DNA from: Spirochaetaceae bacterium
Lineage (GTDB): Bacteria > Spirochaetota > Spirochaetia > DSM-2461
NCBI GenBank assembly: GCA_965224705.1
Contig: OZ245056.1
Location: 2,336,001-2,400,000, forward strand
Direction of reading: 5' to 3'
Length of the DNA: 64,000 bases
Made by a program: the position numbers. Shown here one piece after another: positions 36,001 through 51,000 of the stretch (position 1 is the first letter of the stretch; every line of letters begins with the position of its first letter).

Positions 36001-39000
36001 CACCCGGGCCTTTGCGAAAACCGAGCATTTTCTCCACTTCTTCATCCGGATCATGACATCTTCAAGGTCGGCCAGAACCATGGATAATCCGATGTTTCCT
36101 ATTAACTACATTGACCGTCAGATCAGGAAAGATATTTCAGATCATGTCAGGGAGACGGTCAAGTTTGCCAAATCTCCCGCTGCGATGATGATTCGATTTG
36201 TTCTTTATCGTCACTATCACAACTGCATGATTCCATGGAGGGTGAAGGAAGCCAGGAAGAAGAAGGACACAACTCATGCTGAGAAGGCCGGGATCACCAG
36301 GAAGAAACTTCGCAAGGCAGTGAGCAAATACTGGTTGAAGAGGGCCTTTCTGAGCAGGGTCAATCTGGGTGCGGCAGAGAAGAAGACCTGGTTGTGTGAG
36401 TGGCGTAATCCGGGAGTGGAATCCGGCCGTTATGATCCGCTGTATGTGAAGGTTTAGGATGAGATCGGACTCCCGGGATGGGTTGAAGAGGGTTTTACAG
36501 GCTTTCTGACACTGGATATTTCAATCAAAGAAAGTATACAGGATGCGATGGATTTGTTTAATCGGTGCAGAAAAAATAGATTCACAGCAATTTCCTCCAA
36601 CTAAAATAAAAAACTTTTTTTTCCAGAAAAAATGAATAATGCCCCACTTGAAAGAGTCATACAGGATGTATGAAGAATCGCTTTTTCCATTGGTTACCAA
36701 CATCAGGAGTCTGGTCTTATCGATTTGCAAGTTTACTTTTTACCTGTGTCATCATTTCCTGGAGTGTTTTCCCCCAGACCATACCCCTTCTTCCCAGCAC
36801 CAACCATGCCTTGCTGGAGGTTTACATTGATCAGGCTGCCAGTACTCGGACTCGCAATGACTGGCTGCGCATAGCCCGAGGTGGATTTGAATCGGTTCTG
36901 GCCGAATGGGAGGCCGCTGCTGCCCTTGTTATTACTGACAGTCGTGTTCTGCAATCTGGTAGGAAGAAGGTGTTGAAAGATCTTGAACAAAGTCTGTCAA
37001 CAGGATTGTCCGAATGGGCTGTTACTCAGTTTCGCAACCAGCATGACCCCCGGGGATTCTCAGATTTCTGGGTTCAAATGAGAGAGGCCGCCCTGACCGC
37101 AACATTTGAATCCCGGAGCGGAGAATTTATCAAAGATGAAAAAGGGCGGCTGGTTGTTATAAAAGCTGACAGGGAGACACTTGCCGAAGATTCGGCTGCA
37201 TTTAAAAACTTCTGGGATGAGCTTATAGACCAGAAGGTTGATGATTGGTATTCAGGGGCCCAGACGGCTTTTTCGGAATTGCTTCTGGATTTTGGTTCCG
37301 AAGAAGCAGCCATTCTTGAAACATATCGTCAGAGTACACTTTCGTCACTGAAGCAGTCGTATTCCAGGGAACTTTCAAAAATGACCCGCCTTACCGAATC
37401 GGCTATGATTCACTATCGCCTCAAAAATATAGTTGATTCCGACTCTGATGCAGGCGGGCAGGATGTGATTCCCTCGGAAACCAGAGCCATGCTCAACCAG
37501 GTTCAAAACGATGCAGAGGCTGGTTTGACACGCTTGAAGGATGGACTGAATGTCAACCAGGATGCACCCGAAGTGAAGAAAGCTGATATAGATGCCGCCC
37601 GATGGAGGGCGAGTTTCCGGGAAGAACTGGAAAAGGGCATACTTCTCTGGAGGGAGGCTGAAGAGAGGCTTCTGATGAACCGGATCGAATGGGAGAAAAA
37701 GGCCGGTTATGATCTTGTTCTGACTCGAAAAAGGTGGGATAAGGCATTCCGGGAGTTGGCCGAAGCCAATGAAAAGTGGCTTGATGACTATCAGCGGATC
37801 TGGAATGAGGGTCAGGATCGCTGGGAAATCCAGAGCCGTCAGATGCAGAACACTCTGGAAAATGCCCGCAGTGAAATGGCATCAAACATCAATGGCCGCC
37901 ATGATTCCATGGTTCAGAGGGTGTCTACTCTGGTGGATATTCTTGGCCAGTCTCTGATAATGATGAGCACGGCCCGGGAAAACTTTGCGTACTGGATGAA
38001 CAAAGCAGCTCCCTACAGTCAGCAAACTCTGGAGCAGGTATCATGGGATATCGAGGATCTGAGAGCACGCTATAACAGAGCTGTTAATTTGAAGAAATAC
38101 AGTCATGGCCTGCGGTGGAGTTTTCTTTTCTTTAATGATAAAGCCGGAGAACAGGCCCGTTACTGGCTGGAAGACATCTACAACGTGTATCTGGAACGTG
38201 CGCAGGATGTCAGAGCCGATCTGTATCAGACATACAATTTATCGGTTTTCGGAGAAAGCGGACTTGATGAAATGGGACTCAAGGACCTTACCTCTGAACT
38301 GAAGAATGGTCAGTGGGAACAGATCTTTTTAGATGACTATCAGGTGGAACTGCTCAAGGCCAGAGCGGCTGCTTCGTATTGGGAGAAGGAACTGGAGATT
38401 GCCGCTGCCGTTACCCGCTACGCAGAAAAGCCGAGTTCCATTCTGGGAAGTGAAGAAGAAAAGAATGAGGTGGATAGAGCCTGGACGGAGAGCTTTGATG
38501 CGTACCAGAAGGCCCTCGAAACATATCAGGCGGGCATCAAAAAACTTGAAATGGCAAACCTGGATCTCAAGGAAAATAGCAGAAAATTGACCGAAGTGCA
38601 GAAAATTTTGACCGGATACAGGGAAGAACTCGCAGAAGCCCGGGCAGTTTACCAGAATGAAATACTTTTAAAAGAGCTGGATTCTTCCCGGTACTTCAAG
38701 GAACAGATTCGAGATTCCTATGTGAGGTTACTGGAACTTTACGGATTGACTGATGATGAGAAGAAAAGTACCGAGAGTTTCTATATGGATTATCTCAATA
38801 AGAATAGGGCATATGAGGGAGAATTCTCCCTCTCTCAGACATCTCTTCTGGTCACGGAACTCATTGAAGGTGATCCGGGCAGAATTCCTCCCATACTTTC
38901 TCTGCAGGATCTGGGAGTCCGTTATGAGAATGCCAGAGATTGGAATACGGCCAACTTGTTTTCTGCCAGTCGATTGAATCCAGACTTCATGGAGAAGTTT

Positions 39001-48000: not shown

Positions 48001-51000
48001 CATTATGAGGTAGGCCATTATGACACTATGTATGAGCGTTTGCGGAAGTGGCTGCCTTAGAGCCTGTCGGACTTACGTCTCACGGCTCAATTTTTGCCCT
48101 TCTCTCCAGAAGCAAGCCTCCTGCTTGCTTCTGGAGAGCCGCCTTCGTTTTCTCGCTATCGCTCGGCACTCTCTCAGGATGCGAGTCCATAGACTCGCAT
48201 ACCCTGCTGCTGCGTTGCCAAAATACTCACGCAGCCCAGCTACGCTTAAGTTTTTGTCGCCTTGCATCAGGAAGAAATCATCAAAAATCGCCTCAAAGCC
48301 TTAAAGTCCGACAGACTCCTCAGGAGATGCGGGTCGAATCTGCTGTTCGAGTTATGGGCAATTCGGGGGGTTCCCCCCAGGGCCTGGGATTGGTACACTA
48401 ATCATCCTAGGAGCCTGTCGAACTTCCGCCTTGCGGCGCAAAGTCTTAAAGTCCGACAGACTCCTGGAAGTGATATTATGGATCAAATTACACAACTTGA
48501 AAGTCTTGGTATTCATATACTTCGGGAAGCATATGCTAATTTCACCAATCTCTGTATGCTGTGGTCAATTGGAAAAGACTCGACAGTACTCCTGTGGTTA
48601 GCCCGCAAGGCCTTCCATGGTCATGTTCCTTTTCCCCTGGTTCACATTGATACGCATTACAAGATTCCTGAGATGATTGAATACAGGGACAGGCTTACCC
48701 GTGAGTGGCATCTGCCAATGGTTTACGGCGAGAACAGGGCCGCTCTTGAAGCCCGGCAAACCTTTCCCGATGGCAATGTCGACCGTATCACCTGCTGTCG
48801 TCTGCTCAAGTCAGAAGCTCTCAGGAATACTCTGAACGGCACATGGCCGCGGTATCGATACAATCATCAGGATGGTGAGTACCAGGTGGACAGGGATACG
48901 GAGGCCTACACCGGAGTCATTGTGGGGGTAAGATCGGATGAGGAGGGATCCCGGTCCAAAGAAAGATACTTCTCTCCCCGGGATACGGAGAATATCTGGG
49001 AGGTGGAAGATCAACCTCCAGAGTTCTGGAACCAGTTCAAAACAGATTTTGCTCCGAATACTCATATCCGTATTCATCCCCTGCTGGATTGGACTGAAAC
49101 GAATATCTGGGAATACATAGAACGTGAATCCATTGCAACTGTTTCCCTCTACTACGATCAGGGAGATGGCCGACGGTACAGATCCCTGGGGTGTGGACCC
49201 TGTACCCATGCGGTGAAATCCGGCGCAAAAAACGTTCAGGACATCATCACTGAATTGAAGTCAGGTCAATTCTCAAATATTGCCGAGCGTTCAGGACGGG
49301 CCCAGGACAAAGAAGATGGCGGGGGACTGGAAACACTTCGCCGTGAAGGTTACATGTAGTGACCGAACAGATGAATGTGGTTATCACTGGCCATGTTGAC
49401 CACGGAAAGAGTACTGTAATCGGTCGTTTGATGGCGGATACAGGCAGTTTACCGGATGGAAAACTCGAGCAGGTACAGGCTTCATGCCGCCGGAACTCAA
49501 AACCCTTTGAATATGCGTTCCTCCTGGATGCCCTCAAAGATGAACAGAGCCAGGGCATAACCATTGATTCGGCCCGGGTCTTCTTCAACACCAAGAAGCG
49601 TCACTACATCATAATTGACGCCCCCGGTCATATTGAATTCCTCAAAAACATGGTGACAGGAGCATCCAGGGCGGAAGCTGCCTTTCTCTGCATTGATGCT
49701 CATGAAGGAGTGCAGGAAAACTCCAAACGGCATGGGTACCTCCTATCCATGCTTGGAATCAAGCAGATATGTGTTCTGGTGAACAAGATGGATCTTGTAA
49801 ACTACGATTCCAGAACCTTCAAATCCGTTGTTCGGAAGTTTTCCCGGTTCCTACGGAATATCAATATGAGAAATGTTCCGTTTATACCGGTTTCCGGCAT
49901 GAACGGAGATAATATTACAACCATCAGCCAGGCAATGCCATGGTGGGATGGCCATACAGTTCTTTCCCTCATTGATTCATTTCAGAAGGAAGAGATTCCA
50001 TTGAACATGCCCTTCCGCATGCCGGTTCAGGGAGTGTATAAGTTTACGGCACTGGAAGATAACCGTCGCATTGTTGCCGGAACAGTTTCTTCGGGAACTC
50101 TTAAAAAAGGTGATGAGATTGTCTTTTATCCATCGGGGAAGAGAAGTCATATAGCCAGTATAGAGGATTTTCCGGACAAAAAGATTGAAGCAGTTGGAGC
50201 AGGTGAGGCAACGGGTTTCACCCTGACCGAACAGATTTACATCAAGCGCGGAGATCTTGCCGCAAAGTCAGATGAAAAACCTCCACTGTCCGGGAACTTG
50301 ATCAGGGTTAATCTTTTCTGGCTTGGTAAAAAACCTCTGGTCCGGGACAGGGAGTACTTCCTGAAAATAGGTACTGAGCGGGTCCGAATGCAGCTGGTGG
50401 ATACTATGAAAGTGATTGATGCTTCCAATCTTAATACTGATGGAATGAAGAAGATGGTTGAGCGTCATGATGTGGCGGACTGTGTTCTCACGACCCAACG
50501 TCCCATTGCTTTCGATCTGGTTGAAGATTTTCCCCAGACCAGTCGCTTTGTTATTGTCGATGGGTATGAAATTGCCGGAGGCGGCATTATTAATCAGTCT
50601 CTCCGGGGAAGAATTGCCCAGTACAGAGACCAGGTTATGAACCGGAACCTTAAATGGGATGTGGGTAATATTACCAGAGTGAGCCGAAGCGAGAAGTATG
50701 GACATCAATCAGCCCTGATTCTTGTTGGAGGACCTGAGGACAGACGCAAAGCAAATTTTGCACGAACTGTTGAAGAAAGGCTTTTCAACCTTGAAACCAA
50801 GGTGTACTACCTGGGAGTTCAGAATGTTCTGGCTGGCCTGGAATCTGATCTGGTTGTAAAAAGAGATGCCATTTACCCGAAGGACAGGGATGAAATGATA
50901 CGCCGCCTTGCTGAGTTGAGCAATATCCTTGTGGATGCCGGTATTGTTCTTGTGGCAACAGTATCTGAATTGAGTCAGGAAGAACAGGAGATTTTTACAA

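What a model noticed while it worked through the whole genome (the two positions that open the first line are those of the whole stretch)
36670..48060. 3,796-aa secreted protein defines a spirochaete giant polymorphic effector family with swappable C-terminal enzymes
The largest protein of the genome has a signal-peptide-like start, a 3,450-aa body with no family match that is conserved in other spirochaetes, and an unrelated C-terminal tip. The tip is M23/LytM-like here and in two homologues and different in two others, the pattern of a polymorphic effector.
Evidence so far: No Pfam/NCBIfam hit. Homologues in 9 of 38 family genomes, frames 2,500-3,900 aa; eroded in G037. Alignments stop at residue 3,425-3,536. 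HLHYE motif at the tip; G035 tip hits M23 (E 0.002) and P0365 has PF01551; P0363, P0364 tips differ.
(Added by a program. Inside this text positions count along the whole contig: contig position 2,336,001 is position 1 of the stretch shown here. "Call 12" and the like, gene names such as g00115 and contig names such as C1 are that model's own, and its searches are not shown. The text may have been shortened before it was handed on; [...] marks where a part breaks off. The agent that wrote the report below was given it as the finding of a first reader that could run no searches.)

Follow-up and report, generated by a model that had tools for sequence, protein, structure and literature searches.

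The report
Spirochaete giant toxin with dedicated exporter
This is one member of a large, apparently undescribed family of giant spirochaete proteins that carry interchangeable cell-wall-cutting enzymes at their tip, are usually followed by a matching protective gene, and almost always occur together with the same pump-like gene cluster, which may be a new route for exporting weapons against rival bacteria.

Summary
Confirmed and extended. The 3,796-aa ORF is a full-length member of a spirochaete polymorphic toxin family (957 sequence clusters). Anatomy: signal peptide, conserved N-terminal domain, acidic helical stalk, hydrophobic hairpin, zincin-fold pre-tip domain (HExxR), then a swappable tip, here an M23 peptidase. 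Identified tips are mostly peptidoglycan enzymes. New: the family travels with an eight-gene cluster (TPR lipoprotein, small lipoprotein, TolC, adaptor, two Ig-like lipoproteins, two AcrB-type RND subunits): in 400 phylum genomes 82 have both, 4 toxin only, 18 cluster only, 296 neither, and usually adjacent. It is intact in this genome, 1.9 Mb away. RND pumps are not known to export large proteins, so this may be a new secretion route (inferred, not shown). This copy has no partner gene: repeats and cysD follow, and no cognate was found genome-wide, so it may be disarmed or protected otherwise. Toxicity, immunity and export are untested.

The parts
36670..48060 (+). Full-length giant polymorphic toxin gene, 3,796 aa, net charge -163
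   Evidence: covered without frameshift by an 8,665-base contig of a second study with 62 substitutions and no gap (39425-48089)
36670..36774 (+). Predicted Sec signal peptide (residues 1-35)
   Evidence: hydrophobic stretch at residues 20-41; similar starts in 25 of 32 full-length proteins; crude rule, no dedicated predictor
36712..38961 (+). Conserved N-terminal domain (residues about 15-764), marker of full-length genes, candidate export-recognition domain
   Evidence: profile hits 87 of 401 phylum genomes; not found in five orphan-only genomes; no family or Atlas hit
37546..37788 (+). Trp-periodic helical segment, copy 1 (residues 293-373)
   Evidence: weak likeness to a TIGR04388 member (E 0.006, probability 6%)
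44368..44610 (+). Trp-periodic helical segment, copy 2 (residues 2567-2647); start of the conserved C-terminal module
   Evidence: N-terminal profile hits it at E 1e-7; family-wide alignments begin near residue 2,500-2,550
45751..45894 (+). Hydrophobic hairpin (residues 3028-3075), followed by a Gly-rich stretch; candidate membrane-insertion part
   Evidence: the most hydrophobic window lies 670-770 residues before the end in 11 of 12 relatives with a complete C-terminus and core; role inferred
46603..47157 (+). Zincin-fold pre-tip domain with HEAWRDG (H3387, E3388), E3404, H3412 and YDWSGEYWK; candidate releasing protease and recombination anchor
   Evidence: invariant H, E, R, G in 46 sequences; model pLDDT 87.6; best structural matches are zincins, Z 5.0-6.6; HExxR rather than HExxH in 131 of 151
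47524..48057 (+). M23/LytM-type peptidase tip (D3679, H3729, H3776, H3778; first ligand H3663 or H3668)
   Evidence: ends at the same codon as in G037, so not cut short
48060..48465 (.). Two copies of a genome-wide short inverted-repeat element standing where relatives have the partner gene
   Evidence: 127 forward and 132 reverse terminal motifs in the genome; ends seen
48478..49359 (+). cysD-like gene (PAPS reductase domain); unrelated neighbour, not a partner gene
33617..36457 (+). Upstream mobile DNA: DDE transposase (33617-35026), short repeat element (35541-35704), 250-aa repeated ORF (35705-36457)
   Evidence: 8 long copies of each ORF in the genome

Best explanation
The gene is a full-length member of a spirochaete polymorphic toxin family aimed at the cell wall of rival bacteria. 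Shown by sequence: constant body, swappable tips, orphan cassettes, a tip-matched exported partner gene, an M23 tip in this copy, and tight linkage to an eight-gene TPR/TolC/adaptor/Ig-lipoprotein/RND cluster. Inferred: the protein crosses the inner membrane by Sec; the linked cluster recognises the N-terminal domain and moves or displays it across the outer membrane; the helical stalk reaches a neighbour; the hydrophobic hairpin enters the neighbour's outer membrane; the zincin-like domain (a HINT domain in a Leptospira-type relative) frees the tip; the tip cuts peptidoglycan in the target periplasm; the partner protects the producer's own periplasm. This copy has lost its adjacent partner gene and has been moved away from the cluster, which is still intact. 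Odds: polymorphic antibacterial toxin family 0.9; cluster functionally dedicated to it 0.85; cluster is its outer-membrane export or display machine 0.55; this copy still an active weapon 0.4.
For: Tip swapping: pre-tip 78-89% vs last 200 residues 16-25% in 15 pairs of the G360 array; 80-84% vs 17-22% in four orthologues of one genus. Arrays of truncated core+tip cassettes in 7 of 8 genomes fetched. 57 of 58 tips have a downstream gene, 53 with an export signal by my rule (background 475 of 1,617), 52 within 30 bases or overlapping; tip and partner likeness coincide in 29 pairs against a permutation mean of 2.8, maximum 12; a held-out own-clade tip carried the predicted partner (E 2e-10). Tips over Pfam cut-off: M23, M15_4, NlpC/P60, and a PT-TG pre-toxin domain. 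Co-occurrence with the cluster: 16/2/0/20 in the family, 82/4/18/296 in the phylum sample, 42 of 44 same-contig pairs within 25 kb. The two RND subunits form two lineages kept across classes.
Against: No activity, expression or secretion was measured. This copy, G035, G282 and G302 have no partner gene beside the tip, which a periplasm-transiting peptidoglycan hydrolase should need. The own M23 motif I has an insertion (H-x10-D or longer) and misses Pfam. Most tips (74 of 129 by my motifs) are unassigned, and the His/Cys classes got no library hit. The pre-tip domain lacks the second His of HExxH, so it may be inactive; Z 6.6 is middling. RND pumps are known for small molecules; the only periplasm-to-outside protein cargo I found in the passages read is a small peptide via MacAB-TolC. 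18 genomes have the cluster without a detected N-terminal domain. Genomes are related, thresholds were set after seeing the data, and profiles were built from some of the genomes counted.
Confidence: 0.78

Rival explanations
1. Polymorphic toxin as above, but the linked cluster does not export it: it is an accessory (envelope scaffold, chaperone or anchor, or an efflux pump for a small co-product), and the toxin leaves by another route such as vesicles or lysis.
For: RND/adaptor/TolC families are small-molecule pumps; the toxin has its own signal peptide; 18 cluster-only genomes; G000 has only one other TolC-like gene for four other RND pumps, so the cluster's TolC could be shared.
Against: Adjacency in several orders and orientations across classes, joint loss in G037 and joint fragmentation in G036, and absence of the lipoprotein orthologue in 4 of 5 orphan-only genomes tie the cluster to the full-length gene; no other export gene recurs beside it.
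Confidence: 0.3
2. The giant is a structural surface filament or adhesin (as the label 'putative large structural protein' recalled for TIGR04388 suggests) whose variable tips remodel the cell's own wall or bind surfaces; the downstream genes are regulators.
For: Long acidic helical body without repeats; several full-length copies lack a partner; M23 domains also serve housekeeping.
Against: Orphan cassettes with homogenised pre-tip regions, at least four unrelated tip folds on one carrier, a PT-TG tip and a PT-HINT relative fit conflict systems, not housekeeping.
Confidence: 0.08
3. This copy is domesticated or disarmed: after losing its partner it is silent, catalytically weak, or acts only on foreign peptidoglycan, in a probably animal-associated bacterium full of mobile elements.
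For: No cognate partner found with two profiles; mobile DNA within about 150 bases upstream; sister G037 has eroded the gene and lacks the cluster marker; one holder run is labelled mollusc metagenome.
Against: The 11.4-kb frame is intact here and without gaps in a second study's contigs over most of its length; all eight cluster genes are intact; catalytic His/Asp are kept.
Confidence: 0.45

Closest known systems
Polymorphic toxin systems (CdiA, Rhs, MafB; Zhang et al. 2012 PMC3482391; Jamet and Nassif 2015 PMC4436062)
   Same: Constant N-terminal carrier, variable C-terminal enzyme, downstream partner gene, orphan cassettes, pre-tip processing domain. MafB also has a signal peptide and a lineage-restricted N-terminal domain.
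   Different: No Rhs, haemagglutinin, VENN, PAAR, LXG or MafB domain; helical stalk; zincin-like HExxR pre-tip domain; tips dominated by wall enzymes with exported partners; linked to an RND/TolC cluster rather than CdiB, T6SS or T7SS.
TIGR04388 Lepto_longest and Leptospira HINT-bearing large proteins (LA_3725 in PMC4751964; PT8 in bioRxiv 2021.10.19.465003)
   Same: Very long spirochaete proteins with variable ends. An operon-adjacent 4,233-aa protein of family f20 shares this family's N-terminal domain (E 7e-32), carries PT-HINT and touches TIGR04388 weakly (E 0.001).
   Different: TIGR04388 does not match G000 or 14 relatives; frames that pass its cut-off miss the N-terminal profile except for one short Trp-periodic helix. 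Whether LA_3725 or PT8 carriers belong to this family was not tested.
Heteromeric RND pumps (MdtABC-TolC) and MacAB-TolC periplasmic peptide export (PMC8277102 passages)
   Same: Two different AcrB-type subunits, an adaptor and an outer-membrane factor; MacAB-TolC takes a Sec-exported peptide from the periplasm.
   Different: All curated RND-permease equivalogs are far below cut-off; two Ig-like lipoproteins, a TPR lipoprotein and a small lipoprotein are added; the inferred cargo is about 430 kDa.
T6SS peptidoglycan effectors with periplasmic immunity (Tae, Tlde; recalled)
   Same: Wall-cutting tips and signal-peptide or lipoprotein inhibitors.
   Different: Different carrier and delivery; no T6SS gene in any neighbourhood read.

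Membership tests
Polymorphic toxin system | Conserved N-terminal carrier fused to distinct C-terminal domains | tested here: met
Polymorphic toxin system | Orphan C-terminal cassettes with partner genes | tested here: met
   met in relatives (G360, G369, G339, G354, G247, G307, G366); none in G000
Polymorphic toxin system | Cognate immunity gene directly downstream | tested here: inconclusive
   family: 57 of 58 with a downstream gene, co-varying with the tip; this copy: none; protection not measured
Polymorphic toxin system | Toxic activity of the tip on target cells | not testable with these tools
   needs expression or competition assay
Peptidase M23 (tip) | Profile match and HxH motif | tested here: met
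   clade profile hits M23 structures, best E 3e-6; HLH invariant in 7 of 7; own sequence alone below Pfam
Peptidase M23 (tip) | HxxxD motif I (recalled) | tested here: inconclusive
   Asp invariant, His 8-10 or more residues upstream in the clade; own model failed
Zincin metallopeptidase (pre-tip domain) | Zincin fold | tested here: met
   pLDDT 87.6 model; the ten rows with Z of 5.1 or more are all HExxH-type zincin folds; Foldseek top rows likewise but E above 0.001; Z is middling
Zincin metallopeptidase (pre-tip domain) | HExxH zinc motif | tested here: not met
   HExxR in this protein and 131 of 151; HExxH in 5
TIGR04388 Lepto_longest | Match above curated cut-off | tested here: not met
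CdiA / Rhs / MafB / LXG carriers | Their repeat or trafficking domains | tested here: not met
   no such Pfam or NCBIfam hit
Type I secretion (ABC-type) | ABC transporter in the export cluster and cargo without signal peptide | tested here: not met
   inner-membrane parts are ACR_tran RND proteins; cargo has a signal-peptide-like start
L,D-transpeptidase-like tips in relatives | His ... Gly-Cys motif and fold | tested here: inconclusive
   His and Cys invariant in 11 of 11; no PDB or Pfam hit; label is recalled from the motif

The most novel reading that the evidence does not exclude
Spirochaetes possess an undescribed, phylum-wide secretion system built from a heteromeric RND pump, an adaptor, a TolC channel and four lipoproteins, which takes 2,200-4,500-residue Sec-exported polymorphic toxins from the periplasm and presents them for contact-dependent delivery of wall-degrading enzymes into rival bacteria. 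It would be the first RND machine with a giant protein cargo and a general interbacterial weapon of the phylum.
Probability: 0.5. Interest if true: 0.95.

Novelty: new variant of a known kind. Interest (0 to 1): 0.86.

Why it matters
How spirochaetes fight other bacteria, and how they export large proteins, is poorly known. This gives a concrete candidate for both, present in about a fifth of sampled genomes across classes, with named cultured carriers (Spirochaeta thermophila STHERM_c20200, S. africana Spiaf_1244, Salinispira pacifica AHC14397). It makes three things directly testable: whether an RND pump can move a giant protein, how a toxin reaches a diderm target's periplasm without a needle, and a library of new wall enzymes with matched inhibitors.

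Tried and rejected
Tip truncated by the repeat at the stop codon: rejected, G037 ends at the same codon. Membership of TIGR04388: rejected. Paralogues or orphan cassettes in G000: none found. Fold of the own tip failed (pLDDT 33.5, seven sequences) and was not searched. Complex prediction of the G010 tip with its partner gave no verdict; it counts neither way. Word-based protein searches were uninformative. ESM Atlas gave nothing for the N-terminal domain. PDB profile searches for the core, pre-tip, papain-like and His/Gly-Cys tips found nothing significant. No RNA holder listed. Promoter scan at chance level. Earlier scan notes: nothing returned. Proton-relay motif check of the RND subunits by pattern was patchy and is not used. 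BLAST clustering of tips (33 groups of 168) chains some unrelated tips through linkers, so it is only a rough count.
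Full report
Observation. The ORF is real: 36670-48060, 3,796 aa, the longest frame of the 3.0-Mb genome and single copy. It has no Pfam or NCBIfam match near a cut-off. Contigs of a second study cover it, the longest over 8,665 bases with 62 substitutions and no gap. The C-terminal 886 residues match 17 of 37 other family genomes (same count with a profile). A profile of the conserved core (residues 2907-3491, 16 sequences) finds 957 clusters at 50% identity and 30 of 401 phylum genomes. Of 80 loci returned from named genome records, 70 titles are spirochaetes, 4 are unnamed and 6 name other taxa, possibly binning errors.

Anatomy. Signal-peptide-like start (25 of 32 full-length proteins by a crude rule); a conserved N-terminal domain of about 700 residues with a Trp-periodic helix that recurs at residues 2567-2647; an acidic, helix-prone stalk of variable length without detectable repeats; a hydrophobic hairpin at 3028-3075 and a Gly-rich stretch; a pre-tip domain with invariant HExxRxG that folds confidently (pLDDT 87.6) and matches zincins best (Z up to 6.6; SprT-like in the Atlas). 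The second zinc His is Arg in 131 of 151 proteins and His in 5; conserved E3404 and H3412 could supply ligands, or the site is dead. The tip is an M23 peptidase: a seven-member clade profile hits M23 structures (best E 3e-6), 4 of 7 members hit PF01551, the own sequence does not. G037 ends at the same codon, so the repeat at the stop did not truncate it.

Polymorphism. Seven of eight genomes fetched around strong hits hold tandem core+tip cassettes, each followed by a small gene; G360 has a 3,699-aa gene and six orphans. In that array the pre-tip region is 78-89% identical and the last 200 residues 16-25% (15 pairs); in G369 49-93% and 18-39%; four orthologues of one genus give 80-84% and 17-22%. 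On a tree of the core, tip classes change 31 times among 91 labelled rows (50 unlabelled rows left out), against 32-45 for shuffles: nearly decoupled. Of 37 proteins scanned, 8 hit M23 (1 over cut-off), 2 M15_4, 1 NlpC/P60 and 1 PT-TG; the rest gave nothing useful; two more M23 tips pass the cut-off. By my motifs 74 of 129 tips stay unassigned; many have an invariant Cys or His and Gly-Cys, which I read from memory as papain-like and L,D-transpeptidase-like, without library support.

Partner genes. 57 of 58 tips have a downstream same-strand gene, 52 overlapping or within 30 bases, 53 with an export signal by my rule against 475 of 1,617 background ORFs; a partly overlapping second set gives 63 of 67 and 54. 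Tip likeness and partner likeness coincide in 29 pairs (permutation mean 2.8, maximum 12 of 10,000; 44 pairs tip only, 25 partner only; kin not independent). Partner domains include FGE-sulfatase-like, PF25302, SH3b, LRR, WG and RCC1 repeats. The own tip's clade has its own lipoprotein family, which correctly picked out the partner of a held-out tip (E 2e-10). Exported partners fit periplasmic targets. In G000 two short repeats and cysD follow instead, and no cognate was found in the genome. G035, G282 and G302 also lack one.

The linked cluster. Beside the toxin genes of all 13 relatives fetched for this (chosen because parts had been seen) and G067 lies the same set: TPR lipoprotein, TolC-like factor, RND adaptor, two Big_5 lipoproteins, two AcrB-type subunits, often a small lipoprotein, in several orders and orientations (the RND pair was not in the G325 stretch; in G010 the cluster adjoins an orphan locus and the TPR gene the full-length one). 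In G000 the eight genes are intact at contig 448,014-460,709. In the family, 16 genomes have toxin core and lipoprotein orthologue (E 1e-30 or better), 2 toxin only (eroded G037; G004, 85% complete), 0 cluster only, 20 neither. Around lipoprotein hits in nine genomes of other classes all nine show the cluster and five show a giant gene with the same N-terminal domain in the stretch read; one carries PT-HINT before its tip. Across 400 phylum genomes: 82 both, 4 N-terminal domain only, 18 cluster only, 296 neither; in the 78 genomes of families f2-f12, 16 both and no discordant case; 42 of 44 same-contig pairs lie within 25 kb. Caveats: the 1e-45 threshold was set after seeing the list, only three candidates per genome were scored, short contigs favour closeness, and the profiles include some counted genomes. 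Five genomes with only orphan arrays lack the N-terminal domain, and four of them the lipoprotein orthologue (G354 has withheld bases). The two RND subunits form two lineages kept across classes, apart from G000's four other RNDs (FastTree, small outgroup, long branches).

How it most likely works. Sec export; hand-over to the cluster through the N-terminal domain; passage or display across the outer membrane; contact; hairpin insertion; release of the tip by the zincin-like (or HINT) domain; cleavage of the target's peptidoglycan; protection by the exported partner; renewal of tips by recombination in the pre-tip region. Only the gene-level pattern and domain identities are shown; every step of transport, cleavage, killing and protection is inferred. 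The main difficulty is physical: RND pumps are known for small molecules. The main oddity of this copy is the missing partner.

Prior knowledge. Eight literature searches (listings and abstract starts only) showed no description of this family or of the cluster. Passages only were read from PMC3482391 (spirochaetes in phyletic tables; no mention of M23 or Spirochaeta in the held text), PMC4436062 (definition used here), PMC4751964 (a large Leptospira protein with PT-HINT), bioRxiv 2021.10.19.465003 (PT8, a Leptospiraceae toxin domain with measured toxicity; carrier not seen) and PMC8277102. Supplements were not read and could list members; subscription journals are not searched. So HINT-bearing Leptospira giants are partly recognised; the carrier family, the zincin-like pre-tip domain, the wall-enzyme repertoire and the RND cluster link were not found in print.

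Verdict. A new family of a known kind of system, with a strong genomic case for a dedicated, possibly new export machine. Interest 0.86.

Noticed in passing
window 35541-35704, 48060-48320, 48411-48465; genome-wide: A short inverted-repeat element with about 130 copies of its terminal motif, flanked mostly by CCAG/CTAG-like tetramers; IS-rich genome.
   Followed up: partly
window 5559-12107 (-): 2,182-aa predicted lipoprotein with about 18 Ig-like repeats (PF25788), a candidate adhesin; the genome has many other 1,300-2,450-aa surface-type proteins.
   Followed up: no
window 35705-36457 (+): 250-aa ORF without family match, 8 long copies in the genome: probably an unclassified transposase fragment.
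   Followed up: partly
G000 contig near 221 kb, 519-525 kb, 1,687 kb, 2,918 kb, 1,267 kb: FGE-sulfatase-like, PF25302-like and LRR genes resembling partner proteins of other tip classes: possible orphan immunity genes.
   Followed up: no
L045/L096 (G282) and L058/L106 (G182): Shorter full-length members (1,929 and 2,199 aa) whose tips look unlike wall enzymes; family-wide a few tips look like nucleases (P0015 with PT-TG, P0142).
   Followed up: no
L083-L085 (G307): Array of cassettes that share an identical start and include runs of several partner-like genes, a possible poly-immunity locus.
   Followed up: no
L150-L153 (G098): TIGR04388-matching genes also form arrays of truncated copies with variable ends, 200 kb or more from the cluster; a separate 1,734 + 2,675-aa split giant at L154 has this family's N-terminal domain.
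   Followed up: partly
L226, L227: Two 32-41-kb contigs titled Fibrobacteria carry the pre-tip domain: transfer outside spirochaetes or misbinning.
   Followed up: no
G000 contig about 545-556 kb and 2,547-2,552 kb: Three 1,580-1,610-aa frames whose starts and ends recall Cas9-like or related large nucleases (label recalled, untested).
   Followed up: no
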